DNA from: Squalus acanthias
Lineage: Eukaryota
Reading direction: 5' to 3'
NCBI GenBank assembly: GCA_030390025.1
Contig: CM059432.1
Span: forward strand, 52,268,001 to 52,332,000
DNA length: 64,000 nucleotides
Positions 18,511-40,530 of this stretch are shown in pieces; position 1 is the first letter of the stretch, and each line of letters opens with the position of its first letter. The notes beneath the pieces were generated by a model that was not told where the DNA came from, did not search any database, and saw only the letters and a list, made by a program, of their open reading frames with translations. Both the position numbers and the translations under genes were made by a program.

Positions 18511-19502
18511 ATAAATGACTAGATAATCTGCTTCAGTGATGTTGGCTGAGAGATACATTTTTGACAGGGCACCAGGAGAACTCCCCTGTTCTTCTTCAAA
18601 TAATGGCATAGGATCTCATACATCTTACTGAGAGGGCAGACAGAGCCTCAATTTAATATCTCATCTGAAAGCTGGGCTTCTGACATTGCAGCACTCCTTC
18701 AGTACGGCACTGAAGTGTCAGCCTAGAATAAGTGGGACCTTCTAACTCAGAGGGGAAAGTACCAACTCTGAGCAAGGCTTGACACACCCTTCCTGCTTGG
18801 TGTCCATTCCTACCCCAGCCCACACATGAAGCACTTTGGGACATTTTGCTACGTTAAAGGTACTATATAAGTAGTATTTACTGTTATAATGTATCTGAAA
18901 GTAACATGTAACCTGAAATGTAGCATTTATTCAATTTCCTGCAAAAGGAGAATATATCTTCTCAAGGTAATTAAGGAACTAGATCCATATTGCCTGCAGA
19001 TTATTGTGAACTGAACATATACTGAAAGCTTCTCCCCCACAAAATTGCATTCGGTCAGAGGCAACCTAACATCCCTTCCACTGGATTGCTGCAGATAATT
19101 TGCTCACTGTAAGCAAACTAGGACAGGGTACTGGGTTATGTGAAAGAGTAACGTTAATGTAGGAGATGGGGTGTATAGGAGGATGAAGCAGCAGTACAGA
19201 ATAGGGTAGCAAGGATGCAGGAGAAAGGAATCTGTATGGGAGAGGCAGAGAGGGAAGTAGTAAAAGAAAGAAAGAAAGACTTGCATTTATATAGCGCCTT
19301 TCACGACCACTGGACGTCCCAAAGCGCTTTACAGCCAATGAAGTACTTTTGTAGTGTAGTCACTGTTGTAATGTAGGAAAATATGAGAAGAAAGTATGAG
19401 AAGAAGGGAGTGTGATTTGGCAATGACAATTATAATAGTGGGGATTCGTAGCAGAAAACAGAGGATCGGAGAAGGAAGCAGCAGAGGAAGGAAGCAGTGT
19501 GT

Positions 19503-20002
19503 NNNNNNNNNNNNNNNNNNNNNNNNNNNNNNNNNNNNNNNNNNNNNNNNNNNNNNNNNNNNNNNNNNNNNNNNNNNNNNNNNNNNNNNNNNNNNNNNNN
19601 NNNNNNNNNNNNNNNNNNNNNNNNNNNNNNNNNNNNNNNNNNNNNNNNNNNNNNNNNNNNNNNNNNNNNNNNNNNNNNNNNNNNNNNNNNNNNNNNNNNN
19701 NNNNNNNNNNNNNNNNNNNNNNNNNNNNNNNNNNNNNNNNNNNNNNNNNNNNNNNNNNNNNNNNNNNNNNNNNNNNNNNNNNNNNNNNNNNNNNNNNNNN
19801 NNNNNNNNNNNNNNNNNNNNNNNNNNNNNNNNNNNNNNNNNNNNNNNNNNNNNNNNNNNNNNNNNNNNNNNNNNNNNNNNNNNNNNNNNNNNNNNNNNNN
19901 NNNNNNNNNNNNNNNNNNNNNNNNNNNNNNNNNNNNNNNNNNNNNNNNNNNNNNNNNNNNNNNNNNNNNNNNNNNNNNNNNNNNNNNNNNNNNNNNNNNN
20001 NN
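19503..20002. other. Assembly gap (500 N)
   Basis: Direct observation. Confidence 1.
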
Positions 20003-25352: not shown

Positions 25353-26739
25353 CAACAGAAAACGCTGGAAAAACTCAGCAGGCCAGGCAGCATCCATGGA
25401 GAGAGAAACAGAGTTAATGTTTCAGGTTGAAGACCCTTCGTCAGAACTGGAAAAAAGCAGGAAATGAAATAGATTTAAAGCAAGTATAATGCTGGAAAAA
25501 GGGGGAGGGGATGAAAGAACAAAAGGGAAGGTCAGTGGTAGTATAGAAGGCAGGAGAGATTAAGAGACATTGAGAGACATTAAGAGATATTCAAGACAAG
25601 AGGAGGTGGTAATGTGACAGGTTGAGGCTAGATGAAGTGTGAAATGCGCTGGCAGAATGAAGGACAGCTGCCAGCTTCAGGGAGGGAAGAAAAAAAGGGG
25701 CCAAACAAAAGGGTGGATGAAAAAATAAAATATGTGTGTATATCTATATCTAGATGTGTCTATATCTATATCTCTATATCTATATCTATATCCATATCTA
25801 TATCTATATCTATATCTGATAGGGGCCGTGGTTATGATCTGAAATTGTTGAATTCTATGTTGAGTCCAGAGGGCTGTAGCGTGCCTAAACGAAAGATGAG
25901 GTGCTGTTCCTCGAGCTTACGCTGAGCTTCCGTGGAACAATGCAAGAGGCCGAGGACGGTGAGGTCAGAGTGGGAGTGGAGCAGAGAATTAAAGTGACAG
26001 GCCACCGGGAGCTCGGGGTTCCCCTTACGGACTGAACGGAGGTGTTCCGCAAAGCGGTCACCCAATCTGTGTTTGGTCTCCTCAATGTAGAGGAGACCAC
26101 ATCGTGAGCAGCGAATACAGTATACTAAATTGCAGGAAGTACATGTAAATCGCTGTTTCACCTGGAAGGGGTGTTTGGGGCCCTGGACAGTGGGAAGGGA
26201 GGAGGTAAAAGGGCATGTGTAGCATCTCCTGCGCTTGCACGGGAAGGTGCCGGATGAAGGGGAAGGGGTACTGGGGGTAGTAGAGGAGTGGACTAGGGTG
26301 TCGCGGAGGAAGCGGTCCCTGCGGAATGCTGAAAGGGGAGGTGAGGGGAAGATGCGTTTGGTGGTGGGATCACGCTGGAGGTGGCGGAAATGGCAGAGGA
26401 TGATCCGTTGAATGTGGAGGCTGGTGGGGTGAAAGGTGAGGACAAGGGGAACTCTATCGTGGTTCCGGGAGGGAGGGGCAGGGGTGAGGGCAGAAGTGCA
26501 GGAGATAGAACGGACACGGTCGAGGGCCGTGTCAACCACAGTAGAGGGGAATCCTCGGTTGAGAAAAAAGGAAGACATGTCGGAAGCACTGGTATGGAAG
26601 GTGGCATCGTCAGAGCAGATGCGGCGGAGACGGAGAAACTGGGAGAATGGAATAGAGTCCTTACAGGAGGTGGGGTGGGAGGAAGTGTAGTCCAGGTAGC
26701 TGTGGGAGTCAGTGGGCTTGTAGTGAATGTTAGTCAATA
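25353..26739 (-). mobile_element. Penelope-like element (duplicate of 17124-18510)
   Basis: Identical 301-aa ORF 25832-26737. Confidence 0.9.
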
Positions 26740-27873
26740 ATAAATGACTAGATAATCTGCTTCAGTGATGTTGGCTGAGAGATACATTTTTGACAGGGCA
26801 CCAGGAGAACTCCCCTGTTCTTCTTCAAATAATGGCATAGGATCTCATACATCTTACTGAGAGGGCAGACAGAGCCTCAATTTAATATCTCATCTGAAAG
26901 CTGGGCTTCTGACATTGCAGCACTCCTTCAGTACGGCACTGAAGTGTCAGCCTAGAATAAGTGGGACCTTCTAACTCAGAGGGGAAAGTACCAACTCTGA
27001 GCAAGGCTTGACACACCCTTCCTGCTTGGTGTCCATTCCTACCCCAGCCCACACATGAAGCACTTTGGGACATTTTGCTACGTTAAAGGTACTATATAAG
27101 TAGTATTTACTGTTATAATGTATCTGAAAGTAACATGTAACCTGAAATGTAGCATTTATTCAATTTCCTGCAAAAGGAGAATATATCTTCTCAAGGTAAT
27201 TAAGGAACTAGATCCATATTGCCTGCAGATTATTGTGAACTGAACATATACTGAAAGCTTCTCCCCCACAAATTGCATTCGGTCAGAGGCAACCTAACAT
27301 CCCTTCCACTGGATTGCTGCAGATAATTTGCTCACTGTAAGCAAACTAGGACAGGGTACTGGGTTATGTGAAAGAGTAACGTTAATGTAGGAGATGGGGT
27401 GTATAGGAGGATGAAGCAGCAGTACAGAATAGGGTAGCAAGGATGCAGGAGAAAGGAATCTGTATGGGAGAGGCAGAGAGGGAAGTAGTAAAAGAAAGAA
27501 AGAAAGACTTGCATTTATATAGCGCCTTTCACGACCACTGGACGTCCCAAAGCGCTTTACAGCCAATGAAGTACTTTTGTAGTGTAGTCACTGTTGTAAT
27601 GTAGGAAAATATGAGAAGAAAGTATGAGAAGAAGGGAGTGTGATTTGGCAATGACAATTATAATAGTGGGGATTCGTAGCAGAAAACAGAGGATCGGAGA
27701 AGGAAGCAGCAGAGGAAGGAAGCAGTGTGTCTGTGCAGGATGAAGGGGAAAGCAATATGGGAAGGAAACTACAATGGGGAGAACAGCAGCAATACAGGAG
27801 AGGAGGAACTCTACAAGAGAGGGGTGTGTGAATATAGTAGGAAGGAGTTGGTGATATGAGGGTGGGGATAGTG

Positions 27874-29571
27874 TGTAGAATTCGCAATATATCGCGATTT
27901 TGTTAATAAGGAGAAAACACAGAGTTTCGTTCAAACAGCTTTTATTTCAGCAGAATGCTGGCAGGTTTAAAGTGGACACAAGCAGCCTGTAAAATGGCCG
28001 CCGCACCTCGTGACAGAACATTCTAGACTTTTCAACAGGCAGACAAGATGGCGTTCCAATAAACATTTGTGCAAGATCGATTAAGATTCAGCACAGTGAA
28101 GATAATACACGAGACATTATGGGTTTGCAGTATACACATAGATACTGAAATCGGTCTCCCAGGTACAAAGGAAAGCCATTGTACCGAGTAATCAAGGGCC
28201 CATCCAAAAGACATTAATATGTAAAATCCCGACGACTCTACGATGAGAGAGCCGTTAGCAGGTAGTTATACAGGACACTTGGAAGCCCCAAACCCCTCCA
28301 GGGAGAACACCGACCGATTTAACAATGGGAGAAATATTAACAGGTACTCAGACATTTACGAGTAGCCCCGAAACCCATTAAGAACGGAGATCACCCATAC
28401 AAGACATTTGGGCGCCAAACCCTAAACAAAAGAATGGACATTATAGTTGGGCGGGAAACGGAAGATTTTGCACTATAATTGCAGGCTCCAAACCGTCCAT
28501 TCGCTCTCTTGCTCCTGTGCTTTTATCCGGTCGATTCGTAACCTCGTGGCTGCTCCTGTGTACTCGTAGTTGGGCTCGCTCCTGCTTGCCTGTTGCCTCT
28601 TCTGAAAAGACTGTTGAACTTTCTGATCCGATTCGGATCTACCTCGTGTCGCGTAACGAAGACCTATGTTGGTAACTGGCAGCGGAACCGAAGGCCCGAG
28701 ATGAGATGAGATGAGATGAGATGAGAAGAGAGGAAGACCATATCCATCGCCACGGTCAGTAAATCCCGACCGCGCCTGTAGGTCGATTAGCCAAGTTTTC
28801 CTCGCCAGGAAGACTTCTTCGAACTTATAACGAAACATATTGCATCGACGATAACTGGACTGTGCCCAAAGTAACTGGAACGTGAAAACATATCGTATCG
28901 ACGATATTGACAACTGTGCTCGAAGAGTACCTGTTAAGCCAACCAACACAGGTCTTCATCACAGCAGACGGTCCAGCCTGCTAGCCGGAGCAGCAGAAGC
29001 AAGTAAACAAGTGGGACCAGGAGATCTCCTGACCGACACGTGGGTGCTGCGGTGAAAAGCATCCGATCAGCTATTCGGAATTTCTCCGAGTTATCACGAG
29101 TGGTGAGCATGAGTCTCGAGATCCTACGAATCTAGTTTAGGATAGATATTGATAGGGGAGGGTTTAAGGATTAAGGATATTTGTAATGTGTGCCCCTATT
29201 TACTTTGTGCCGTTCGTTCCTCGTTTCCCTAAGATCGACTATATAACTGTTTGTAAGATTGTACTGTCATTAATCTGTGCTTATGACATGTATTTCATAA
29301 TCTTAAGTATCATGCAATAAAGATTTTCCATTTCGTACCATTCAAACCAAGTCTACATGAGTTTTATCTCCATTACTGCTCTCGCATCTAAGTCCAGTGT
29401 CTAGAACCGTAAGGGAGAGTGATTCGAACCACTCACAGGTGTGTCTAGTGTTCCCAGACTGGCTGGAGACCAGAACAGGCAACAAGGCCTAGACCCGCAC
29501 TGACATACAGGCTGCACAGAGCCGCGTGAATCTCACAGGCTGCGAGACACGCAGGGTCAGAATCCCTTACA
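27874..29571 (+). repeat. 5' LTR (1698 bp)
   Basis: Starts tgtagaattcg, ends cccttaca. GC box 28449, TATA-like 28474, (gagat)n at ~28698-28726, aataaa 29316-29321. Confidence 0.97.
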
Positions 29572-29575
29572 GAAA

Positions 29576-31387
29576 ATGGCGACCGCGGCAGGACACTGGC
29601 AGCGAGAGGGTAGTGTGTTAGATTTTGGAATGACTGTACGAAATGTTATGCAGGAAAAGATAGCGGATTATGTGTTTGGAAAGGTTAATCTAACTAAGAA
29701 ATGGATAAGTGAATTGTTAGCGGATAAGAGCCCACTAGAGGCAGCTGAAAGGTGGACAGATAGTAAAGAACATAGAAAGACACTTGAGAAAGCAGTCTGG
29801 CTTATGTGTTACAAAAGGCAGGTTCAGATTTCAAACCAGACCATTACAGCGCTAGTAGCTCGAATCAGTCATTTAGAGGGAGAAATGGAGGAGAAGGTTT
29901 CTGGAGGGGAGGTGCTCATTAAGAATTTAAATGAGTTACACCAAGAAAGCCAGGAAGTCTCCAGTCACCTTAAAACAAGGATAGATTATCTCGAGTGCCA
30001 GGTCACTGAGGCAAAATTGAATGAGAGCAGGTTAAAGGAAAGATGTAACCGCCAAGCTGCCCAGATAAGAACTCAAGAAGAAAGCTTGATGGGGGTTAGG
30101 GCGGCATATAAGTTGGCCCTTGAGGATAAGTTTCAGGGAGCCGATCATAGCGCCTGCCAAAGGGAGATAGAGCACCTCAAAAAGGCCGTGAACAATGCGA
30201 ACGGCATGGTGTGCCTTATCAATCCGTCGGCGCACCAGCCGCTAGTAAATGAGAGATTTAGAAAATCCCCACCAAGTAAAGCAGAAGAAGTAGTAGCCAC
30301 TGCGCCCTCCGCGCCACCCAGCTATTCAGAAACCTGGGTTAGGGAGGAAGCAATGGAAGAAACAAAAGAGCCCATTGAAAAGGAAGTAGAAAAGGGATCG
30401 TTGTATCCAGTAACGGGTATTAAAAGGGGCCCAAGCAGAAACGGTGGGGAAGAACCGGGGGATCTCCTCGGACAGCTGGTGTTGCCTCACAGTTCACATC
30501 AGCTGAGAGCTATGATAAATCACGTACGGAAGCTGACCGAGGTAGACGACCCTTCCGTACATTTCAGAGAAGTTGAGCAAGCCGCAGCCATTAACGGCTG
30601 CGATGATGGGGAAACAGCAAAAATGCTGCTGTTCTCATTAGACAGCTCGGTCCTTCAGTGTCTCTCAGGCGAGAGCAAGAGGGGAACCAAGAGTTATGAG
30701 GAATTAAAGAACGAGGTCCTGGAAGTGTTGGGGGCGAACGACGAAGGTCCGTTTGCTAGAGTGGGACAGACAGTGCAGATGGAGGGAGAACCCCCGAAGG
30801 TTTTTGCCGACAGGCTGTGGCCAGTATATGAGCGCAGCTGTCTAGGTGCGCCCGAGCGCGAAGATGTGGAAGGTTTAGCTTTAACTCATTGGCTTAGGTG
30901 CATAATAGCCAACAGTTTACCAGCCGTTAGAGAGCAGGCAAAAGCATGGTTTGATCCCAATGACCCCAACATTACGGAAGAGTCGGTCTTGAATCGACTC
31001 ACGTTAGGTTATCGCAATATAAGGGGTATGGCAACACGTCCCCTTAAGGGAAGAGTACATGAGGTACGACCCGCAGCCCCGTATCAAAGAGAGTGGCATC
31101 AGGAGGGTAATCGCGCCCCACAGGCAAGTAATGCTTGTTACGGGTGTGGGAAGACAGGGCACTGGCGCAAGCATTGCAGGAACCCTTGGAAGGATTCCAA
31201 GGATAAAAATCCCGCGGTCCGAGCCCAGGCGCCTGTCCCGGCTAAGGAAGCCAAGGCACCCACCCCTCCCGACGACCTCGAAGCAGTGTTAGGAGCCATG
31301 CGCAAGCTGGTCTTGAATGCGCGTGGACAGGTGGCGGTCGCAACCGGCCCCGTAGGTGTCGCAGGACCGTCTAATAGTACCCAATGA
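29576..31387 (+). CDS. gag: Gag polyprotein (603 aa): coiled coil, late domains, capsid-like region, CCHC zinc knuckle
   Basis: Uninterrupted ORF directly after the LTR; CYGCGKTGHWRKHC at 31136-31177; PSAPPSY at 30305-30325. Confidence 0.92.
   Translation: MATAAGHWQREGSVLDFGMTVRNVMQEKIADYVFGKVNLTKKWISELLADKSPLEAAERWTDSKEHRKTLEKAVWLMCYKRQVQISNQTITALVARISHLEGEMEEKVSGGEVLIKNLNELHQESQEVSSHLKTRIDYLECQVTEAKLNESRLKERCNRQAAQIRTQEESLMGVRAAYKLALEDKFQGADHSACQREIEHLKKAVNNANGMVCLINPSAHQPLVNERFRKSPPSKAEEVVATAPSAPPSYSETWVREEAMEETKEPIEKEVEKGSLYPVTGIKRGPSRNGGEEPGDLLGQLVLPHSSHQLRAMINHVRKLTEVDDPSVHFREVEQAAAINGCDDGETAKMLLFSLDSSVLQCLSGESKRGTKSYEELKNEVLEVLGANDEGPFARVGQTVQMEGEPPKVFADRLWPVYERSCLGAPEREDVEGLALTHWLRCIIANSLPAVREQAKAWFDPNDPNITEESVLNRLTLGYRNIRGMATRPLKGRVHEVRPAAPYQREWHQEGNRAPQASNACYGCGKTGHWRKHCRNPWKDSKDKNPAVRAQAPVPAKEAKAPTPPDDLEAVLGAMRKLVLNARGQVAVATGPVGVAGPSNSTQ
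29577..29594 (+). promoter_or_regulatory. Primer binding site, tRNA-Arg(TCG)
   Basis: TGGCGACCGCGGCAGGAC, 5 nt after the LTR. It is complementary to the 3' 18 nt (GTCCTGCCGCGGTCG-CCA) of vertebrate tRNA-Arg-TCG as I recall that sequence. Confidence 0.85.
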
Positions 31388-32497
31388 CTAGAGCCCACGC
31401 AGCCTGCCTACCTGTGTCCTTTTAAAAGACACGCACAGGAGGGGGTCTGCGGTGAGGAGGCCAGGTTAAAAGAGCAGGCCTTGCGGGAGGAGAACGCCCG
31501 CTTAATAGGGAAAATAGATGGGCTGGAAGGGCAGCTTAGAGAGCAGGCCCTGCGGGAGGAGAACGCCCGATCAATGGGAAAGTTAGACGTGCTCAGGCTA
31601 GAAGCGCAGCTTAGAGAGATAAAAGCAGCCTACAGGGTAGCCAAAAGCCGGGAGTATGAGGATGTAAACCAATGCAAACTGTACCAGCCAGGTGCGCAGG
31701 GGAAAACTACAGGGGTAAATCCCGCCAATGGGAAAGCACAGCCCCAGGTAGGACCACAAGGCACACAGGCAGGCATAGCAGCTTGCATCAGGGGAAGGGA
31801 CATCCCGGACGATCATGCAGCGTTTTTCTGGAATTGGGGGTTAGATGAGGAAGAACTCAGGGTACCCTGGTCAGATGAGGATAGTGCAGATGAGCATAGT
31901 GATGATGACGGGTGGTTCCTGAGGAACGGTCTGGAGGGAATGGGGGCTGTAGGTAGAGATCCACACAGGGTGGACACACAAGCTGCAGGTCCCGAGGACA
32001 GGAGGGAGGAGCTAGAGGAGGCAGGGCCAGCCGCTATAGGAGCACAGAGAGTACCGGTGTGGCTCCCAGAGATGTGGCCGCCCGCTTTGAACGTCCAGTC
32101 CTCAGGGGAGGCAGAGATCACGAGTGAAGGGCCGCCTGCTGGGCCGAGCAGGGCGGAGCCACGAACTGCCAGCCCCGAGGTTAGGGAGGCGGAGTCAGCG
32201 GAGGTGGAGCCGGCGACTGTGATGGAACCCCAGGTCATCCCGATGGAGGTCTCGGAACCCGGTCCGTCCGTCACGGAACCCCCGCCCATAGCAACTCCCC
32301 GTAGGTCAAGTAGAGAACCCCAGCCCAGGAGGATGTGGTCATGTCCCCAGACTGCCCCAAGGCGAAAATTTAAGGTTAAGATAACCCAGGTACAGACCGG
32401 CCACATCGCAGCAGTAACAGGCTGCGGCAGATCAGAGGGAAGGGTCAGTGCCCTCCCACCGTCGGGAAGAGCTCGCAGCAGCCTTCTCAGAATTTAA
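31388..32497 (+). CDS. ORF2, in frame with gag after TGA-CTAG; coiled-coil + acidic/Pro-rich protein of unknown function in the pol position
   Basis: No stop from 31388 to 32494 in the gag frame; no protease, RT, RNase H or integrase motifs seen. Confidence 0.7.
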   Translation, partial: LEPTQPAYLCPFKRHAQEGVCGEEARLKEQALREENARLIGKIDGLEGQLREQALREENARSMGKLDVLRLEAQLREIKAAYRVAKSREYEDVNQCKLYQPGAQGKTTGVNPANGKAQPQVGPQGTQAGIAACIRGRDIPDDHAAFFWNWGLDEEELRVPWSDEDSADEHSDDDGWFLRNGLEGMGAVGRDPHRVDTQAAGPEDRREELEEAGPAAIGAQRVPVWLPEMWPPALNVQSSGEAEITSEGPPAGPSRAEPRTASPEVREAESAEVEPATVMEPQVIPMEVSEPGPSVTEPPPIATPRRSSREPQPRRMWSCPQTAPRRKFKVKITQVQTGHIAAVTGCGRSEGRVSALPPSGRARSSLLRI

Positions 32498-32803
32498 AGG
32501 GGCCGCCCTGAGAACGGGCGGCACTGTAAAGTTATAGTAATAAGTTTTCAGTTTATAGTTCAAGGTTAAGTGTTAATATTTCAAGGTTAAGTTTATAGCT
32601 TTAATAAGGTTAAGTTTGTAGTGTTTTTAACAGAAAACGATAAAATGATGGGAGCTTTAAAGATAGGTTTAGTTGAAGTTTATTCAGCGAACGTTGAAGT
32701 TTACGTGAGGCGAGGTCAGGGGACCCGCTCACCCTTCACAAAAGCCAGAGACTCTTGCGAGGCTGGCTACCTCATTCTATCTGATCACAGGAACCAAGGA
32801 AGG

Positions 32804-35155
32804 ATGGAACGAATTCTAGTATTGCTCGTGGCAATCGGATGTGGATTGGCCTATCGAGGCCGCACCAAGGATGTCGTGGTGTTTGGATGTTCCGGGGACA
32901 CGGCCCCCATCGCGGTGGATGGGACCGGAAGACGGGAGGCAGAGGAGACCAGCACCTATTTCCACAAGGGAAGGTGGCCAGGATGGCTGGGAACGAACTC
33001 AACGGAGTATTCCAGCACGTCGGGGTTTGCCTACCAAGAGACTTCTTTACTGTGCCCCAAAGTAAGGATCATCGCACCCAGGATCAGCGTCACCGTCGGC
33101 AAACGGATTTGTTTGACTTGTAGTGGGAAGGTCCCATTGAGCCGATGGTGGTGGCTGCGAAAGCTGAGCAAAACTATGAGAAACTCTTCGGTCGAGTGGG
33201 AACGACTGGGTAATAATACCCATCGGACAATTACGGGGACAGACGGACAAGTGAAAGTCTGTTGGGACAAATGGTGGGAACCGGATGAGGGAATTTATGT
33301 ATGTATGTGGGGGTCAAAGTACGTTTGCCCCAAAGGCATCTCCATATTTTTTATTAATCAATGGCAGGATAACGGACAGGGGATGAGGTGGGATGCGAGC
33401 ACCAGGGGGTGCGGAGCCCCATTCTCCCCGATCCCAGTAAATGCCACTGAGCTCATTACGCGCCCACGCAAAGCCCCGCCCACGATTCCGGTGGTTCTAG
33501 CTGAGGAAGAAGGGTGCCCTAAAACTAGTAAGGGACCCGGGAATGGTTTGGTACTGGTCCCCACAGACCAGATACTATTTCAGGGGGTACATTACGCGGT
33601 GGCCTCGGTGATTTTAAATCTCACTGAGGTGCGGTTACCAGAGTGGTGCCCCAAAAAGACGGAACAGTTGTACCAGGTCCTGTTGACCAAGATGTTCAGA
33701 CAATTTTACGAATTCGATTTCGCGGAAATTGATAAAACAAGTTTGTACACCGCGCCACAGGAAGTTTTGGATCAAGTAGGGAGGCAAAGAAGGGGTTTGG
33801 TGAACGATGCGTTCACTGCTTTTAACACAGGTACATCTGTGGTCAACGCTCTAGACAGTGTGGAGCTGCAGACCCAGATTAATGGTTTAAAGACACAATT
33901 AAAAGACATTCTAACAGATGAGAATAAAGTGGTAGGGTCAGGTCTACACGAGGACCAAGCCATGACCCTCCATTTAAAGGAAATTATAGCAGAGTTGGAG
34001 AAACATGCAAAGACGGTAAATGCCCTGATTAGGGAAGATCGGAATGCATCCGATCAAGCTGCGCAGAACGAGGTGTGCGTGCTTTACGGGGCGTGGTTAC
34101 TGGGCGAGGGCCACAGTAATTTGGAGGATTTAAAACAAGGTTTGGTTCCGTCCTGGATAAGTAACAAACACCTACGGGCGCTCCACCCTTTTCAGAATGC
34201 ATTAAGCCCGTGCCAGCTCAGGCTAGCTTCAGAAGCATACCCAGTCCCCGTGGACTGCGGACGATCAAACCATACCATTATGGGTATAGTTTTACGCATG
34301 CCGGTTTTGGGCGACACAGCAAAGCCCGCCCCGGTATATCGGGTAGAGAACATCGGTGTCATTCAGGGGGGAGCCCACATTCGTTATGCAGCGGTTCCAC
34401 CTTACGTCATCCGCTGGGAGCAAACGATGACAGGTACAGATCTCTCTGGTTGTCGTGGCAGGGGAGCACACATAATACTGTGCCCCCAGCACTTGAATGC
34501 CTTTTTAACACCACAGTGCGGGTTCAGAACGGCTGGCGCCAAGTCCATGAATTGCACCATGGAGGCAATGGCACAAGATCATGTGCCTCCGCAGGTAGCA
34601 TACATCGGGGGTGGAACATATTGTGTTACCACTGCAGCGCAACACTACCAGCATGGAAACCGTAGCCGGTGTCCGGTGAGTGACAGCAGTTTCTGTTTTA
34701 AACCCAGGGCGGAAGTTCAAGTAGCACAACAGCGAATTATCCCAATCCCTGAACCATCCACTGTTCATCTCACGGTAAAAGAGAATTTCACCGACTTGCA
34801 GCGATTCGTCGCGCATTTTGGATACCTCATTCCCCCTCTCCCTGAACACCTCACCAAGCTTTTAAAAGCCGTCGCGGTGTCACAGAAACACTTTTACACA
34901 TTAGAGCAGAAAACTGTCGAAATAGGAACAGACATTCTGGATATAGTAGTTCCACCGTGGTGGAATCTGTTCACTAATATTGAAGTACCTTCATGGATCA
35001 GAATAGCCTCCCACATTTTAGTCGTATGCCAAGTTTTCATTGTAGTGTACCTATTGGTCGTACATTGTAAAAGAGACAAACGCCTCACCAAGCATGAAAA
35101 CACGGGAGAGTGGCGAGAACGTTACGTGCGCGTGCACGATGAAAGCACCGTGTAA
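32804..35155 (+). CDS. env: Envelope glycoprotein (783 aa): signal peptide, Ig-like domain, furin site, F-type fusion subunit, TM anchor
   Basis: MERILVLLVAIGCGLA signal; RQRR|GLVN at 33782-33793; heptad repeat; Cys-rich region; TM at ~35003-35068; about ten N-glycosylation sequons; splice acceptor at 32790. Confidence 0.9.
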   Translation: MERILVLLVAIGCGLAYRGRTKDVVVFGCSGDTAPIAVDGTGRREAEETSTYFHKGRWPGWLGTNSTEYSSTSGFAYQETSLLCPKVRIIAPRISVTVGKRICLTCSGKVPLSRWWWLRKLSKTMRNSSVEWERLGNNTHRTITGTDGQVKVCWDKWWEPDEGIYVCMWGSKYVCPKGISIFFINQWQDNGQGMRWDASTRGCGAPFSPIPVNATELITRPRKAPPTIPVVLAEEEGCPKTSKGPGNGLVLVPTDQILFQGVHYAVASVILNLTEVRLPEWCPKKTEQLYQVLLTKMFRQFYEFDFAEIDKTSLYTAPQEVLDQVGRQRRGLVNDAFTAFNTGTSVVNALDSVELQTQINGLKTQLKDILTDENKVVGSGLHEDQAMTLHLKEIIAELEKHAKTVNALIREDRNASDQAAQNEVCVLYGAWLLGEGHSNLEDLKQGLVPSWISNKHLRALHPFQNALSPCQLRLASEAYPVPVDCGRSNHTIMGIVLRMPVLGDTAKPAPVYRVENIGVIQGGAHIRYAAVPPYVIRWEQTMTGTDLSGCRGRGAHIILCPQHLNAFLTPQCGFRTAGAKSMNCTMEAMAQDHVPPQVAYIGGGTYCVTTAAQHYQHGNRSRCPVSDSSFCFKPRAEVQVAQQRIIPIPEPSTVHLTVKENFTDLQRFVAHFGYLIPPLPEHLTKLLKAVAVSQKHFYTLEQKTVEIGTDILDIVVPPWWNLFTNIEVPSWIRIASHILVVCQVFIVVYLLVVHCKRDKRLTKHENTGEWRERYVRVHDESTV

Positions 35156-35595
35156 TCGGAAAATGGCGTCACTCCCGCTCGCCGCGTGCGCCGCGGAAGT
35201 TTGTACTCATATAAGATTTTCAGAGATTGTAAATACGTTGGGAACTCGACATGTTTTAAGAGTTGGTGTTGATTTATTTTGGTGATGGTGTTACAGTTAA
35301 AAATGATTGTTTGGTTTTGGGTTTTTGTTTTTCCTTTCCCTGAATAAAAGATGAATATGCAGGTGATACGAGAGGCATCGGCCTGGTTACGCCGGGAAGG
35401 AAAACAAGTGGTGTAAGTTTAAGGGCAAATAATGCCTACGGTGATATAAAATGTAATCTTCTTGGGAAATGAGGACGACACAGAGACCCTAGCTAAGTTA
35501 AAATTATGGGATTAATTTACTGGATTCGGAGAGAAATCGAGATAACATTGCTCACCACTATGATTTTTGATACGATAAGCGGAGTTATTCGCATC

Positions 35596-35607
35596 AACAG
35601 GAGGGAC
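35596..35607 (+). promoter_or_regulatory. Polypurine tract
   Basis: aacaggagggac immediately before the 3' LTR. Confidence 0.8.
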
Positions 35608-37313
35608 TGTAGAATTCGCAATATATCGCGATTTTGTTAATAAGGAGAAAACACAGAGTTTCGTTCAAACAGCTTTTATTTCAGCAGAATGCTGGCAGGT
35701 TTAAAGTGGACACAAGCAGCCTGTAAAATGGCCGCCGCACCTCGTGACAGAACATTCTAGACTTTTCAACAGGCAGACAAGATGGCGTTCCAATAAACAT
35801 TTGTGCAAGATCGATTAAGATTCAGCACAGTGAAGATAATACACGAGACATTATGGGTTTGCAGTATACACATAGATACTGAAATCGGTCTCCCAGGTAC
35901 AAAGGAAAGCCATTGTACCGAGTAATCAAGGGCCCATCCAAAAGACATTAATATGTAAAATCCCGACGACTCTACGATGAGAGAGCCGTTAGCAGGTAGT
36001 TATACAGGACACTTGGAAGCCCCAAACCCCTCCAGGGAGAACACCGACCGATTTAACAATGGGAGAAATATTAACAGGTACTCAGACATTTACGAGTAGC
36101 CCCGAAACCCATTAAGAACGGAGATCACCCATACAAGACATTTGGGCGCCAAACCCTAAACAAAAGAATGGACATTATAGTTGGGCGGGAAACGGAAGAT
36201 TTTGCACTATAATTGCAGGCTCCAAACCGTCCATTCGCTCTCTTGCTCTCTTGCTCCTGTGCTTTTATCCGGTCGATTCGTAACCTCGTGGCTGCTCCTG
36301 TGTACTCGTAGTTGGGCTCGCTCCTGCTTGCCTGTTGCCTCTTCTGAAAAGACTGTTGAACTTTCTGATCCGATTCGGATCTACCTCGTGTCGCGTAACG
36401 AAGACCTATGTTGGTAACTGGCAGCGGAACCGAAGGCCCGAGATGAGATGAGATGAGATGAGATGAGAAGAGAGGAAGACCATATCCATCGCCACGGTCA
36501 GTAAATCCCGACCGCGCCTGTAGGTCGATTAGCCAAGTTTTCCTCGCCAGGAAGACTTCTTCGAACTTATAACGAAACATATTGCATCGACGATAACTGG
36601 ACTGTGCCCAAAGTAACTGGAACGTGAAAACATATCGTATCGACGATATTGACAACTGTGCTCGAAGAGTACCTGTTAAGCCAACCAACACAGGTCTTCA
36701 TCACAGCAGACGGTCCAGCCTGCTAGCCGGAGCAGCAGAAGCAAGTAAACAAGTGGGACCAGGAGATCTCCTGACCGACACGTGGGTGCTGCGGTGAAAA
36801 GCATCCGATCAGCTATTCGGAATTTCTCCGAGTTATCACGAGTGGTGAGCATGAGTCTCGAGATCCTACGAATCTAGTTTAGGATAGATATTGATAGGGG
36901 AGGGTTTAAGGATTAAGGATATTTGTAATGTGTGCCCCTATTTACTTTGTGCCGTTCGTTCCTCGTTTCCCTAAGATCGACTATATAACTGTTTGTAAGA
37001 TTGTACTGTCATTAATCTGTGCTTATGACATGTATTTCATAATCTTAAGTATCATGCAATAAAGATTTTCCATTTCGTACCATTCAAACCAAGTCTACAT
37101 GAGTTTTATCTCCATTACTGCTCTCGCATCTAAGTCCAGTGTCTAGAACCGTAAGGGAGAGTGATTCGAACCACTCACAGGTGTGTCTAGTGTTCCCAGA
37201 CTGGCTGGAGACCAGAACAGGCAACAAGGCCTAGACCCGCACTGACATACAGGCTGCACAGAGCCGCGTGAATCTCACAGGCTGCGAGACACGCAGGGTC
37301 AGAATCCCTTACA
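35608..37313 (+). repeat. 3' LTR (1706 bp)
   Basis: Matches the 5' LTR apart from an 8-bp tandem duplication (tcttgctc) near 36241-36256; aataaa at 37058-37063. Confidence 0.97.
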
Positions 37314-38019
37314 AGTGGTAGGTGATAATGCGCTTTGGATCTTGAGTCCACCCACTGGTTTCTGCATGTATCTGAATTGGATGTCAGTGGTCCGAATGTC
37401 AATTCAGCTAGTTTTAGTGGGAGGAGACAGGTCTCAGGTCTGGGTTTATCATTTCTACAGTTGCCAACCCACGATTTTCTGTCTATTTACTTTAATGGGC
37501 AGAAAATCATGGGCTGGCGAGGGCCGACGCACAAAGCCACTGCCTGTCTTTCAGAATTAATCAGGCCTCCTTTCACCAATATTAATGGGCCTAAAGTGCA
37601 GACTGAATTAATTCCCACTATTAATTGCATAGATTGTGATCTGAAATGCTGGAATTTTAGAACAAATGCATACTTTCAACTGTAGTGTTAGCAGTGCCTT
37701 TCAGAAAGATCAGTAAGAGTATACGGTGACTCCCTATGTCCTTCAACCAGTCTACTTTTCTTGTGATACAACAAACCTCTCCACACACTTTCCCATGTGT
37801 AGGAGTATGGATGTTATCAGCCAAGCAAAGCTTTAGGTATGCAAACTATGTAATGACATCACACATGCTCTACAGTTCAGGCACAATAGAGCTCCTTGAA
37901 CTCAAAGACAAACATTGAAGTTCAAAATTAAAATAGATAACATACCAAAAATATAACTTTAGTCATATGTTTTTCTTTCAAGATCTTTTGATTTTTTTAC
38001 ATTTTATAATTAGATTTTC

Positions 38020-40530
38020 TGTTCATTGTGCCACACATCATTTCCAGCTCAGAGGACAGGCAGACAGATAACCCCCCGAACTGGAAAATTTCATCAACTT
38101 TGCTTCAAAATTCCACCCCTCCCTCGCCTTCACATGGTCCATATTCGACTCTTCCCTTCCTCGACTTCACTATCTCCATTTCTGGGGATAGGCTATCGAC
38201 CAATATCCACTATAAGCCCACTGACTCCCACAGCAACCTTGATTACACTTCCTCCCACCCCGCTTTCTGTAAGGACTCTATTCCATTCTCCCAGTTTCTC
38301 TGTCTCTGTCGCATTTGTTCTGATGATGCCACATTCCACACCATATGTCTTCCTTTTTCCTCAACTGAGGATGCCCCACCACTGTGGTTGACATGGCCCT
38401 CAACCGTGTCTGTCCCATTTCCCACACTTCTGCCTTCACCCCTTCCCCTCCCTCCCAGAAGCATGAGAGGCCCCCCCTTGTCCTCGCCTTCCACCCCACC
38501 AGACTCCACAATCAACGGATCATCCTCCGCCATTTCCGCCACCTCTAGTTTGATGCCACCACCAAACACATCTTCCCCTCCCCTTTCAGCATTCCGAAGG
38601 GACCATTCCCTCTCCGTTACCTTGGTCCACTCTTCCTCACTCCAAACACCCGCTCCCCTTCCCATGGCACCTTCCTGTGCAAGCACAGGAGATGCAACAC
38701 CTACCCTTTCACCTCCTCTCTTTCCACCGTCCAGGGCCTCAAACTCTCCTTCCAGGTGAAACAGCAATTTACTTGTACTTCTTTCAATTTAGAATACTGT
38801 ATTCGCTGCTCACGATGTGGTGTCCTCTGCATTGGGGATGACCAAATTGGGTGATCGCTTTGCTGAACATCTCCATTCAATCACAAGCATGACCCTAAGC
38901 TTCCGATCATTTGCCATTCTAATTCTCCGTCCCACTCCCACTCTGACCTCGACCTCCTGCACTGTTCCAATGAAGCTCAACAGAAGCTCGAGGAACAGCT
39001 CCTCATTTTTCAATTAAGCATTTTACAACCATCCGGACTCAACATTGAGTTCAATAACTTCAGATCATAACCACTGCTCCCATTTTTTTGGACAGCAGGT
39101 GCTGATAGTGTAAACAGTAAATTCTAGAGATACTCATCAGGTCAGACAGCATCTGTGGAGAGAGAAACAGAGTTAACATTTCAGGTCAATGGCCTCAGAT
39201 GAAAAGTCATCGACCTGAAACAATGGCCCAGAAATTCGGGTCCCCACGGGTGAGTACGTGCTGTGTACTCACCTGTAGGGCCACCGGAAGAGCCAGTTTC
39301 GCGCATGCATGGGAAACCGGAACTTCCGGTCTCTTGAAGGAAGGGGTTCGCGGGTCAACCGCGTGCGTGGGAGAGGCAGCGCGTACGCATCAAACTTCCA
39401 CTTTTTTTACAGGTTTCTCAGTGCGGCTAAGTCCCTAGCAGCTGCGCGTGGAAAAAGCAGGCGCAAGGCCTGCTTTTAACAAGGTAAGAGGTGAATTAAG
39501 TAAAATTGAAACATTTTTTCCACAGGTTTATCATTTTTAAATACTTTAAAGAAAGGTAAGTTTATTTTTAGCCCCGTTAAAAACTTTAATAAATTTTTTC
39601 AAAAATTTAAATTTTTGTTTAAAATAGTTAATTTATGTAATTTATAGTTATTTAAAAAATGTGATTTTTAAAAAAATTATTTGAAGTTTTACTTAGGTTT
39701 TGGGGCCGATCTCTATTCATAGATTTGACAGGTCTTCCTGTCAAATCTATGAATGGAGATTCCCTGCTCTGATTGGCTCCCCATGGACCACGTGATCCCA
39801 GGGGACGGTGCAAACTAGTTGCGCCGCTGGGATACGCGAGGACTGCACACCGGCAGCTGGAGGAGGCCCAGGATCGGAATCCCACGCGGGCCCACAGCAC
39901 AACGGCAGGTGCGCTATGTAAGTGCACCCGCTATGCTTGCACCCGAGGGAAGCCTCCGACCCGAATTTCTGGGCCAATATTAACTCTGTTTCTCTCTCCA
40001 CAGATGCCTGATCTGCTGAGTATTTCCAGCATTTTCTGTTTGTATTTCAGATGTTCAGCATCTGCAATATTTTGCTTTTGTTTTAGATGCTACTAATGGT
40101 TCTGCTGTTGCCATTTACAGCTCCTCTAGACCCATCGTTTGTTTCTTTACTTGTCCCATTACCCACCCCCTATTGCCTTGCACCATCATCCCTTTTGTCA
40201 TTTAATCACTCCTGCCCTCCACCCTATCACAGATCTTCATAAGAACAAAAGAACATAGGAATTCGGAGCAGGAGTAGGCCACACGGTCCCTTGAGTCTGC
40301 TCCGCCATTCAATAAAATCATGGCTGAGTTACTTCAACTCCACTTTCACCTTTGTTCTTTCCTCCCCTCCCTCCCCCCTTTTCCCTGACTCTGCACTTGC
40401 TTATAAACTGTTAAATCTCTAATTTTTCTCAGTTCTGATGAAAGGTCATCGAACTGAAACATTAACACTGTTTCTCTATCCATAGATGCTGCCTGACCTG
40501 CTGGGTATTTCCAGCTTTTTCTGTTTCTAT
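38020..40530 (+). mobile_element. Decayed Penelope-like element with nested insertions in its 3' UTR
   Basis: LPFLD, YKPTDSHSNL, IPFSQFL, LGDRFAEH motifs across frameshifts (38020-39070); tail with hammerhead at 40431-40467. Confidence 0.85.
39225..39975. mobile_element. PIF/Harbinger-type MITE
   Basis: TIR ggcccagaaattcgg...ccgaatttctgggcc with 3-bp AAT TSD; related to 42931-43684. Confidence 0.85.

What the first reader, a model, noticed from the sequence alone, without database searches (positions are those of the whole stretch)
31385..32497. Pol replaced by an unknown ORF reached through a UGA-CUAG stop-codon readthrough
Seen: gag ends CAA TGA CTA G and the same frame stays open for another 369 codons (LEPTQPAYLCPFKRH...). 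The result would be a 973-aa Gag-ORF2 fusion. ORF2 has a coiled coil, a strongly acidic block (DEEELRVPWSDEDSADEHSDDDG), a Pro/Glu-rich region and a basic end. Known: UGA-CUAG is a leaky-stop context, and gamma/epsilon-type retroviruses express Gag-Pol by readthrough. Inference: the element kept the gag-pol recoding signal but uses it to put a non-enzymatic protein into particles at low stoichiometry, perhaps for helper recruitment or host antagonism.
Basis: partly seen in the sequence, partly recalled or inferred. Interest (0 to 1): 0.85.

Follow-up and report, generated by a model that had tools for sequence, protein, structure and literature searches.

The report
Pol-deleted retrovirus keeps readthrough frame
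The "unknown ORF" behind the leaky gag stop codon is not a foreign gene but what is left of the virus's own pol gene after its enzymes were deleted, in a very young, high-copy defective endogenous retrovirus that lives beside its intact relative.

Summary
Gag (29576-31387) ends CAA TGA CTA G, and the frame stays open for 369 codons to TAA at 32495-32497.

The genome also holds an autonomous relative, about 99% identical in LTR, gag and env, that reads gag-TGA-CTAG-pol in one frame, with a 1507-aa Pol. Against it, ORF2 is a pol remnant made of three parts:
- the first ~25 pol codons, which carry the recoding signal;
- a ~70-codon coiled coil whose nearest match is the Gag coiled coil of a second, older retrovirus lineage (E 4e-10);
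- the last 276 codons of Pol, a disordered tail after integrase. This tail holds the acidic block, the Pro/Glu-rich region and the basic end.

No host gene is involved.

TGA CTAG is present in 43 of 43 copies examined. ORF2 is open in 32 of 38 defective copies. Its amino-acid sequence is barely constrained (pN/pS 0.66, against 0.26 for gag and 0.22 for env).

Readthrough is likely, because it is the helper's own Pol expression signal. A selected function for the Gag-ΔPol product is not shown.

UGA-CUAG is not among the retroviral readthrough contexts listed in a 2026 review. I rate this a new variant of a known kind, of moderate interest.

The parts
27870..27873 (+). Target-site duplication AGTG, left copy
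   Evidence: Read. The same 4 bases follow the 3' LTR at 37314-37317.
27874..29571 (+). 5' LTR (1.7 kb, TG...CA)
   Evidence: blastn: 27874-29571 matches 35608-37313 at 99.53% over 1706 columns with 8 gap columns. By my arithmetic (0.47% of 1706 is about 8) the gaps account for all the differences.
29577..29594 (+). Primer-binding-site-like 18-mer starting TGG, 5 nt after the LTR. It overlaps the first ATG of the gag frame.
   Evidence: Sequence read. The primer tRNA was not identified; ARAGORN found no tRNA gene in the window.
29576..31387 (+). gag ORF (603 aa from the first ATG): N-terminal coiled coil, one CCHC knuckle
   Evidence: pN/pS is 0.26 among 18 siblings chosen on ORF2 DNA.
31385..31391 (+). 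Recoding site: UGA followed by CUAG
   Evidence: Kept in 38 of 38 defective and 5 of 5 autonomous places. Also kept in the older-lineage copy L054 and in 4 of 8 further short stretches of that lineage; the other 4 have TGA CCAG. The motif is as in Loughran 2014 (PMC4132726, passages read).
31394..31457 (+). Predicted extended hairpin that starts 6 nt after the stop codon. An alternative distal 3' arm lies at 31467-31493.
   Evidence: RNAfold: all three lineages pair from nt 10 after the U of UGA. z-scores are only -1.2 to -1.8. A covariance model built from the older lineage hits only this site in the window (32.1 bits, E 2.3e-7) and the matching site in the autonomous copy (38.2 bits, E 2.9e-9).
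31388..31460 (+). ORF2 part 1: remnant of the start of pol (pre-protease peptide LEPTQPAYLCP...)
   Evidence: Alignments. Identity to the autonomous copy is near-identical in gag, then visibly lower right after the stop codon.
31455..31664 (+). ORF2 part 2: Gag-type coiled coil not present in the autonomous provirus, with an internal duplication of ~69 nt (31471-31500 matches 31540-31569)
   Evidence: blastn/tblastx. BLASTP to the Gag of the older lineage gives E 4e-10, 49% identity over 53 aa. AlphaFold2 predicts a helix at residues 21-93. The left boundary is approximate.
31665..32497 (+). ORF2 part 3: C-terminal tail of Pol (after the integrase SH3-like domain) plus the pol stop codon TAA
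   Evidence: blastn: window 31665-37313 matches the autonomous copy at 98.4%. Pol frame. Pfam places the SH3 domain at Pol 1182-1224, and NQCKLYQP starts at Pol residue 1219. Integrase end and tail lie in one frame in all 9 autonomous copies read; in 2 of them the frame runs off the fetched stretch. pLDDT is under 50.
32645..35155 (+). env-like ORF (836 aa)
   Evidence: pN/pS is 0.22 among 19 siblings. No Pfam or PDB sequence match.
35596..35607 (+). Purine-rich tract (AACAGGAGGGAC) directly before the 3' LTR
   Evidence: Sequence read. Its role as a polypurine tract is inferred.
35608..37313 (+). 3' LTR
37314..37317 (+). Target-site duplication AGTG, right copy

Best explanation
The window holds a very young provirus (27874-37313) that is a pol-deleted, helper-dependent derivative of an autonomous endogenous retrovirus present in the same genome. 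Each form gave roughly a thousand first-look matches.

In the autonomous virus, gag and pol lie in one frame, separated by a single UGA followed by CUAG and a predicted hairpin. Pol can therefore only be made by stop-codon readthrough.

The defective element kept the following:
- the LTRs, gag, the stop codon, the CUAG and the 5' half of the hairpin;
- the last 276 codons of pol, which encode a disordered tail after integrase;
- env.

It lost protease, reverse transcriptase, RNase H and integrase. In their place sits a ~70-codon Gag-type coiled coil, taken from a different lineage of the same virus group and partly duplicated. All pieces are in frame. The same readthrough that gives Gag-Pol in the helper should therefore give a 973-aa Gag-ΔPol protein at a low ratio to Gag.

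Shown here: the anatomy, the origin of each segment, the conservation of the signal, and strong purifying selection on gag and env.

Inferred:
- that readthrough happens on this RNA;
- that the fusion enters particles through its Gag part;
- that the product is mostly a tolerated by-product, because its amino-acid sequence is almost unconstrained.

The element most likely spreads by supplying its own Gag and Env and borrowing the enzymes of the autonomous virus.
For: Autonomous relatives. Five of 30 loci found with the gag C-half read STP*LEPAQPVYLCPLSY...DTGAS...YVDD in frame. One 12.8-kb provirus was read across pol: it has a 1507-aa pol frame with RVP, RVT_1, RNase_H, Integrase_H2C2, rve and SH3 domains.

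Segment origins.
- Window 27874-31419 matches the autonomous copy at 99.1%, and 31665-37313 matches at 98.4%.
- ORF2 from residue 94 equals Pol from residue 1219 (NQCKLYQP...) in the same frame.
- The remaining insert matches the Gag coiled coil of an older lineage at E 4e-10 (tblastx E 2.7e-8; ORF listed).

No host origin. An exhaustive phmmer search of 1.84 billion representatives gave 1 hit, which is the integrase end plus tail of a related virus.

Signal.
- TGA CTAG is present in 43 of 43 places.
- The stop plus about 50 nt downstream are far better conserved in the older lineage than the gag end is.
- A covariance model finds only the junction, in both forms.
- The basal helix shows changes on both sides between lineages: position 11 is C-G versus G-C, position 12 is A-U versus C-G, position 15 is G-C versus A-U (read).

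Selection.
- pN/pS is 0.26 for gag and 0.22 for env. For ORF2 it is 0.66, against 0.89 and 0.83 in the two off-frames of the same stretch.
- The tail among autonomous copies gives 0.90.

Mobility. There are 38 distinct defective places at 97-100% identity, a 4-bp target duplication and near-identical LTRs.

Structure. ORF2 is predicted as one long helix plus disorder.
Against: Several observations point to some selection on the reading frame.
- ORF2 is open in 32 of 38 defective copies.
- Only 1 stop-creating change was seen among 117 variant sites, against 4.5-5.2 expected (P 0.03-0.06).
- All length variants found in more than one place (12, 33 and 39 nt, plus the founding ~69-nt duplication) are multiples of three.
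- In-frame pN/pS (0.66, P 0.027) is a little below the off-frame values.

These could mean the fusion protein matters.

On the other side, nothing here shows translation.
- The hairpin's folding z-scores are weak (-1.2 to -1.8).
- Its 3' arm in this element differs from the helper's, and two alternative arms are predicted.

Sampling limits.
- The 20 loci were chosen by similarity to the window's intact ORF2, which biases towards open copies.
- Only about 40 of an estimated 1300 copies were read.
Confidence: 0.6

Rival explanations
1. The Gag-ΔPol fusion is an adaptive product. Readthrough places an extra Gag-type coiled coil and the Pol tail into assembling particles. There it would help the defective RNA compete for the helper's enzymes or particles, as the novel gag-pol fusion of mouse IAP IΔ1 elements acts in cis to favour its own retrotransposition.
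For: All three segments are in frame; two random junctions would both be in frame about 1 time in 9 (my own reasoning). The recoding site and a hairpin are retained. Length variants found in several places are all in frame. Stop-creating changes are depleted (1 seen against about 5 expected). pN/pS is 0.66 in frame against 0.83-0.89 off frame. The defective form is at least as abundant as the autonomous one (1343 against 1175 first-look candidates for form-specific 245-nt probes). The IAP IΔ1 precedent is described in PMC6466679 (passages read).
Against: Amino-acid constraint is weak and only marginally significant (P 0.027). It is far weaker than in gag or env (Fisher P 0.015 and 0.004). The tail is equally unconstrained in the autonomous virus (0.90). 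It shares only 30% identity with a relative whose enzymes are 84% identical. The tail is predicted to be disordered. Part of the frame-keeping is automatic, because the repeat units are 39 and about 69-75 nt long and recombination with the helper's pol preserves the frame.
Confidence: 0.25
2. ORF2 is not translated to any useful extent. The pol remnants are kept only as RNA or DNA signals, for example for packaging or dimerisation near the gag end, or for env splicing or export in the 3' pol region. On this view the open frame simply reflects the youth of the family.
For: Copies are 97-100% identical, so open frames are expected without selection. ORF2 pN/pS is close to the off-frame baseline. 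The 3' arm of the hairpin differs from the helper's. A candidate splice acceptor (TTTTCAG at about 32544-32550) lies just after ORF2 (read, not tested).
Against: The stop context and the 5' arm are exactly those the helper needs for Pol. They are conserved across three lineages, so ribosomes on this RNA should behave the same way. UGA-CUAG alone gave 3.5-31% readthrough in mammalian reporters (PMC4132726, passages read). The junctions are in frame, and stop-creating changes are depleted.
Confidence: 0.12
3. This is the first reader's reading: ORF2 is an unknown non-retroviral or host-derived protein that replaced Pol, in the way a transduced gene does in acutely transforming retroviruses.
For: No Pfam family passes its cutoff on ORF2. 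Most of it is unlike anything in the large protein libraries.
Against: Every segment maps to retroviral sequence of this virus group. These are the pol start, the Gag coiled coil and the Pol tail, which lies in frame in 9 of 9 autonomous copies read. The only library hit is the integrase end plus tail of a related virus.
Confidence: 0.02

Closest known systems
Mouse IAP IΔ1 elements (PMC6466679, passages read)
   Same: [quoted passage not shown] Both are non-autonomous and depend on full-length relatives. Both are at least as successful as the full-length form.
   Different: As I recall (not from any call), IAP is a class II element that uses frameshifting. IAP has no env. Its 1.9-kb deletion removes part of gag and pol. 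Here all four enzyme domains are gone, a Gag-type coiled coil from another lineage is inserted, env is kept and under purifying selection, and the fusion depends on stop-codon readthrough.
Gag-Pol readthrough of gamma- and epsilon-type retroviruses (review PMC13517186, section 4.1.2 read in full and other passages)
   Same: gag and pol lie in one frame separated by a single stop codon after the NC zinc knuckle and before the protease DTGA motif. A structured RNA is predicted a few nucleotides downstream.
   Different: The contexts listed in that review are UAGGGA (gamma), UAGGGC (SnRV), UGAAGA (SSSV), UGACGA (zebrafish ERV) and UGAAGU (frog ERV). UGA-CUAG is not listed for any retrovirus. Here a hairpin is predicted rather than the MLV H-type pseudoknot. 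No Rfam family matches.
UGA-CUAG readthrough of alphaviruses and of vertebrate OPRL1, OPRK1, AQP4 and MAPK10 (PMC4132726, passages read)
   Same: The stop codon plus four following bases are identical. In OPRL1 this context gave about 31% readthrough, and in MDH1 about 3.5%.
   Different: Those are cellular genes or RNA-virus replicase genes. Here the motif sits at a retroviral gag-pol junction and is followed by a 64-nt predicted hairpin.
ETn/MusD pairs and helper-dependent defective retroviruses such as MoMSV (PMC6466679 and PMC13517186, passages read)
   Same: A defective element shares LTRs with an autonomous partner and is mobilised in trans.
   Different: ETn has no coding capacity. This element keeps selected gag and env genes. 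It carries no transduced cellular gene.

Membership tests
Retroviral gag-pol stop-codon readthrough | gag and pro-pol lie in the same frame, separated by one stop codon | tested here: met
   Autonomous relatives: 5 of 5 loci and one provirus read through pol. The older lineage has the same arrangement. In the window the same frame continues into the pol remnant.
Retroviral gag-pol stop-codon readthrough | Leaky stop context | tested here: met
   UGA CUAG in 43 of 43 places. The motif was shown to be leaky in reporters by Loughran 2014. It was not measured for this sequence.
Retroviral gag-pol stop-codon readthrough | Stimulatory RNA structure a few nt downstream of the stop | tested here: inconclusive
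   A hairpin starts 6 nt after the stop in all three lineages, with some changes on both sides of the basal helix. However, z-scores are only -1.2 to -1.8, two alternative 3' arms are predicted in the window, and no Rfam family matches.
Retroviral gag-pol stop-codon readthrough | Measured readthrough product | not testable with these tools
   No RNA run is on record. Contigs cannot show translation.
Non-autonomous, internally deleted provirus (IAP IΔ1 / ETn-like) | Shares LTRs and flanking genes with an autonomous element of the same genome | tested here: met
   99.1% and 98.4% identity on either side of the deleted region.
Non-autonomous, internally deleted provirus (IAP IΔ1 / ETn-like) | Lacks protease, RT, RNase H and integrase | tested here: met
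   No such Pfam domain in any ORF of the element. The region that carries these domains in the autonomous Pol (residues 17-1224) is absent.
Non-autonomous, internally deleted provirus (IAP IΔ1 / ETn-like) | Amplified as such, with many copies at different places carrying the same deletion | tested here: met
   38 distinct places were read. A probe specific for the insert gave 1343 first-look candidates. A target-site duplication is present in the window.
Non-autonomous, internally deleted provirus (IAP IΔ1 / ETn-like) | Mobilised in trans by the autonomous partner | not testable with these tools
   Inferred from the missing enzymes and the co-occurrence of the two forms.
Transduced host gene (gag-onc type) | The insert is derived from a cellular gene | tested here: not met
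   All segments are retroviral. An exhaustive protein search found only a retroviral relative.
Genus Gammaretrovirus / Epsilonretrovirus | Gag, Pol and Env of the genus type (Pfam Gag_p30, TLV_coat and the like; RT phylogeny) | tested here: inconclusive
   No Gag_p30 or TLV_coat hit. RT is closest to XMRV/MLV RT (E about 1e-69), but foamy PR-RT is nearly as close (1e-63), and integrase is closest to PFV integrase (1.6e-33). Named relatives are 'NYNRIN-like' proteins of frogs and coelacanth at 40% identity. No RT tree was built.

The most novel reading that the evidence does not exclude
The defective element is not a passive deletion mutant but a parasite with its own tool. By readthrough it adds to a fraction of its Gag molecules a coiled coil borrowed from another retrovirus lineage, together with the fast-evolving Pol tail. 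This gives its RNA or particles an edge over the helper. The edge would be a cis-acting advantage as in IAP IΔ1, or a decoy for whatever host factor the Pol tail engages. That would explain why the defective form has reached at least the helper's copy number in a still ongoing genome invasion.
Probability: 0.2. Interest if true: 0.75.

Novelty: new variant of a known kind. Interest (0 to 1): 0.45.

Why it matters
It turns an apparent mystery gene into a clear case history. Two forms are caught in the same genome while both are still nearly identical between copies: a retrovirus, and its enzyme-less derivative with gag and env still under selection. Earlier notes of this scan call the genome cartilaginous-fish type; I did not test that.

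It adds a retroviral example of the UGA-CUAG readthrough signal, otherwise known from alphaviruses and a few vertebrate genes. The example comes with three natural variants of the downstream structure that can be put straight into a reporter assay.

It also shows that this virus group carries a 276-289-aa disordered, fast-evolving tail on integrase, whose role is unknown.

The open question is whether in-frame gag-Δpol fusions of defective proviruses are functional, as reported for mouse IAP IΔ1, or mere by-products. It could be tested here on about a thousand natural copies.

Tried and rejected
**Host-gene or known-domain origin of ORF2.**
- Pfam gave only a sub-threshold coiled-coil match (Rab11-FIP3, 17 bits against a cutoff of 31.9).
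- The ESM Atlas gave nothing usable.
- A word-indexed search of Pol-length proteins with the tail gave 0 hits among 3430 candidates.

**ORF2 versus its own Gag.** Not significant (E 1.4). The coiled coil matches another lineage's Gag instead.

**Idea that the Pol tail is an old paralogue of the Gag linker.** hhalign probability was 0.1%. Rejected.

**Shared nonsense change as evidence that the ORF2 end is dispensable.** L019 and L030 share the change at 32162. They are not close relatives and the site is a CpG, so this is recurrent decay and not informative.

**Rfam.** No family at the junction. The only hits were chance-level ones in the LTRs.

**Expression.**
- No RNA holder is listed among the sequencing runs.
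- Contigs of four runs showed no splice joints across the element and cannot show transcription or translation.
- The only usable facts are that contigs of three runs, with three organism codes, bridge the stop/insert junction, and that the 39-nt repeat variant and the second junction subtype occur there too.

**Primer tRNA.** No tRNA gene is in the window, so it is unassigned. From memory the site resembles an arginine tRNA end; this was not tested.

**PDB sequence search.** Env gave no hit. Gag gave only weak zinc-knuckle hits.

**Covariation counting on a MAFFT alignment.** I did not use it, because the ungapped alignment misplaces the 3' arm of the autonomous form by one base. I used single folds and a covariance model instead.

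**Other limits.**
Only short stretches were fetched afterwards, so the sample of copies stays small.
- Earlier notes of this scan gave nothing by place near the finding or by sequence.
- No binding prediction was run.
Full report
**1.
- The gag frame (29576-31387, 603 aa from the first ATG, one CCHC knuckle) ends CAA TGA CTA G at 31382-31391.
- The same frame runs on for 369 codons to TAA at 32495-32497.
- An open run of that length has a chance of about 1e-6 in random sequence of this composition.

**2. What the element is.** It is a complete LTR provirus at 27874-37313.
- The two 1.7-kb LTRs match at 99.53% over 1706 columns with 8 gap columns. By my arithmetic the gaps account for all the differences.
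- The LTRs begin TG and end CA.
- They are flanked by a 4-bp duplication, AGTG.
- A TGG-starting primer-binding-like site follows the 5' LTR, and a purine tract precedes the 3' LTR.
- The order inside is gag, ORF2, then an 836-aa env-like ORF. No protease, RT, RNase H or integrase domain is present.

**3. The genome and the family.**
- The genome has 3.7 Gb. Earlier notes of this scan call it cartilaginous-fish type; I did not test that.
- ORF2 DNA gave 40 scored matches at 98-100% identity out of 2710 first-look candidates.
- The gag C-half gave 133 scored matches out of 7091 candidates.

**4. The autonomous relative.** Five of the 30 loci brought in by the gag search differ just after the stop. 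They read ...STP*LEPAQPVYLCPLSYDAWRRP..., then DTGAS (protease) and YVDD (RT), all in the gag frame.

One such provirus is 12.8 kb long.
- Its pol frame has 1507 aa with RVP, RVT_1, RT_RNaseH_2, RNase_H, Integrase_H2C2, rve and an SH3 domain at residues 1182-1224.
- After the SH3 domain come 289 further residues with no Pfam match.
- Eight more autonomous copies also carry the integrase end and this tail in one frame. In two of them the frame runs off the fetched stretch.
- The window matches this provirus at 99.1% over 27874-31419 and at 98.4% over 31665-37313.

**5. Anatomy of ORF2.**

*Residues 94-369 (31665-32494)* are the Pol tail in its native frame: NQCKLYQPGAQG...SSLLRI. The acidic block, the Pro/Glu-rich region and the basic end all belong to it. 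They are therefore features of the intact virus's Pol, not of a replacement protein.

*Residues 1 to about 25* are the start of pol. Identity to the autonomous form is near-identical in gag and falls visibly right after the stop. A weaker similarity continues to about 31460-31478.

*The rest* (to 31664) is absent from the autonomous provirus.
- It contains an internal duplication of about 69 nt.
- It encodes a helix, residues 21-93, with pLDDT 82-95. Everything after it has pLDDT under 50.
- Its nearest match is the coiled-coil part of the Gag of a second, older lineage, which happens to lie next to the autonomous copy I fetched.
- BLASTP with composition adjustment gives E 4e-10 and 49% identity over 53 aa, including IK[TA]AYRVA[RK]SR.[FY]ED.
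- The window's own Gag does not match significantly (E 1.4).

*A second junction subtype* of the defective element was found in 5 of 38 places. It carries a longer, different stretch between the coiled coil and the tail, and mosaics of the two subtypes exist. The family therefore has a history of repeated recombination, not of one clean deletion.

*No cellular origin.* The exhaustive protein search with ORF2 found a single hit. It is an unnamed 266-aa protein consisting of the integrase SH3 end plus a tail that is 30% identical from end to end.

**6. The recoding signal.**
- TGA CTAG is present in 38 of 38 defective and 5 of 5 autonomous places.
- It is also present in the copy of the older lineage that I read in full. 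Of eight further short junction stretches of that lineage, four keep TGA CTAG and four read TGA CCAG.
- In the older lineage, the stop and about 50 nt after it are much better conserved than the gag end before it. That is what a cis-acting signal predicts.
- Folded alone, all three forms give an extended hairpin whose first pair is at nucleotide 10 counted from the U of UGA, a 6-nt spacer. The basal helix shows changes on both sides between lineages.
- The thermodynamic z-scores are weak, -1.2 to -1.8.
- A covariance model built from seven copies of the older lineage hits the window only at 31385-31493 (32.1 bits, E 2.3e-7). It hits the autonomous locus only at its junction (38.2 bits, E 2.9e-9).
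- In the window the model uses a distal 3' arm (31467-31493), whereas RNAfold prefers a proximal one (31433-31457). The 5' half of the module is therefore conserved, and the 3' half in the defective element is uncertain.
- No Rfam family matches.

From the literature:
- UGA-CUAG gave 3.5-31% readthrough in mammalian reporters, and it is the alphavirus-type context (PMC4132726, passages read).
- A 2026 review lists UAGGGA, UAGGGC, UGAAGA, UGACGA and UGAAGU as the retroviral contexts known (PMC13517186, section 4.1.2 read in full). UGA-CUAG is not among them.

**7. Is ORF2 kept?**
- Of 38 distinct defective places, 32 have ORF2 open to its normal end.
- Among the 25 chosen on gag alone, 22 are open.
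- The broken ones are as follows:
  - two members of one tandem array share a 1-nt deletion;
  - two unrelated copies carry the same CpG nonsense change, which is recurrent and not inherited;
  - one copy has a frameshift;
  - one copy is rearranged.
- Open ORF2 lengths are 369, 373, 380, 382, 384, 393 and 407 aa, so every length variant is in frame. Part of this is automatic, because the repeat units are 39 nt (one to at least four copies) and about 69-75 nt.
- Stop-creating changes: 1 seen among 117 variant sites, against 4.5-5.2 expected (P 0.03-0.06).

| Region | Copies | pN/pS | Note |
|---|---|---|---|
| gag | 18, chosen on ORF2 DNA | 0.26 | |
| env | 19 | 0.22 | |
| ORF2, in frame | 37 | 0.66 | P 0.027 |
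| ORF2, off-frames | same stretch | 0.89 and 0.83 | |

- ORF2 differs from env (Fisher P 0.004) and from gag (P 0.015).
- Among nine autonomous copies the tail gives 0.90.
- An earlier gag figure of 0.14 is biased, because those loci were chosen by Gag protein similarity.
- The relative found in the libraries has Pol enzymes 84% identical but a tail only 30% identical.

Taken together, the frame is probably under some selection, while the sequence is hardly constrained at all.

**9. Abundance and spread.**
- Form-specific 245-nt probes gave 1343 first-look candidates for the defective insert and 1175 for RT. The two forms are therefore about equally numerous. These figures are rough.
- Strong purifying selection on gag and env of the defective form indicates that it spreads using its own structural proteins.
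- Contigs of three public runs, under three organism codes, bridge the stop/insert junction with 1-2 differing letters. Whether those runs are RNA is only a guess, so nothing can be said about expression.

**10. Verdict.** The thing is real, and it is more ordinary than proposed. It is a helper-dependent, pol-deleted provirus whose 'ORF2' is a chimeric pol remnant still sitting behind the virus's own readthrough signal.
- Readthrough on this RNA is likely. I put it near 0.75, by inference from the helper's need for the same signal.
- A selected role for the Gag-ΔPol product is possible. The mouse IAP IΔ1 precedent supports the idea (PMC6466679, passages read), but it is not shown here.
- What is new in kind is modest:
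  - a retroviral use of UGA-CUAG;
  - the in-frame Gag / coiled coil / Pol-tail fusion;
  - a long, fast-evolving disordered tail on integrase;
  - all of it in a family that looks active or very recently active.

Noticed in passing
G000 C16:35635439 / 35643179 / 35650927; C7:29045044 / 29052765; C11:50291452 / 50299191; C22:50761698 / 50772825; C6:53079045 / 53090170: Many copies sit in head-to-tail arrays. The spacing is one internal region plus one LTR: about 7.7 kb for the defective form and about 11.1 kb for the autonomous form. This points to LTR-sharing tandem proviruses. It could come from unequal recombination or from assembly collapse, and I did not resolve which.
   Followed up: no
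L053:4309-5178 (autonomous Pol residues 1219-1507); window 31665-32494: Pol of this virus group carries a 276-289-aa tail after the integrase SH3 domain. The tail is predicted disordered and has no Pfam match. It contains an acidic-aromatic block and a 13-aa repeat unit present in 1 to at least 4 copies. It is open in 9 of 9 autonomous copies read, yet evolves almost neutrally. One distant homologue exists (P0002, 30% identity). Its function is unknown.
   Followed up: partly
L054 (G000 C9:91532500-91542499), minus strand: An older, decayed sister lineage lies next to the autonomous copy. Its Gag is 35% identical to the window's Gag, and its junction probe gave 667 first-look candidates. It keeps TGA CTAG and the downstream block. 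Four of eight further short stretches of this lineage (L058, L059, L060, L062) read TGA CCAG instead.
   Followed up: partly
window 18772-19502, 19503-20002 and 27001-27730: The 730 bases just left of the provirus are repeated at 99.9% identity directly before a 500-N assembly gap. A second copy of the locus, or a haplotype duplicate, may be hidden in the gap.
   Followed up: no
window 26033-26739 and 38194-38879: A pair of inverted repeats at 83% identity flanks the provirus. These are probably copies of another repeat family.
   Followed up: no
window 31419-31425 and 31466-31472: The apical loop of the predicted hairpin (CUUUUAA) is exactly complementary to UUAAAAG, which lies 9 nt after the hairpin's last paired base (31457). 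The covariance model also pairs these stretches. This could be a pseudoknot or an alternative fold. Note that the loop sequence is itself palindromic.
   Followed up: partly
window 29576-29594: The first ATG of the gag frame overlaps the primer-binding-like site, so the real start codon may be a later ATG (for example codon 18). The primer tRNA was not identified.
   Followed up: no
window 31813-32406, minus strand: A 197-aa ATG-started ORF lies antisense inside the Pol-tail region. A similar antisense frame is present in the autonomous copy. It is probably a by-product of the 59% G+C, stop-poor composition. I did not examine it further.
   Followed up: no
L050 (G000 C19:18431754-18435638): One defective copy carries two gag-end/ORF2-start junctions 424 nt apart. 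This is an internal rearrangement.
   Followed up: no
window 32205: The window copy has a private nonsynonymous base here. It reads T where all 37 siblings compared have C.
   Followed up: yes
runs X1-X14: Runs filed under six organism codes hold 37-72% of the sampled words of this stretch. Near-identical copies of the family therefore occur in more than one labelled organism. I did not look into what the labels stand for.
   Followed up: no
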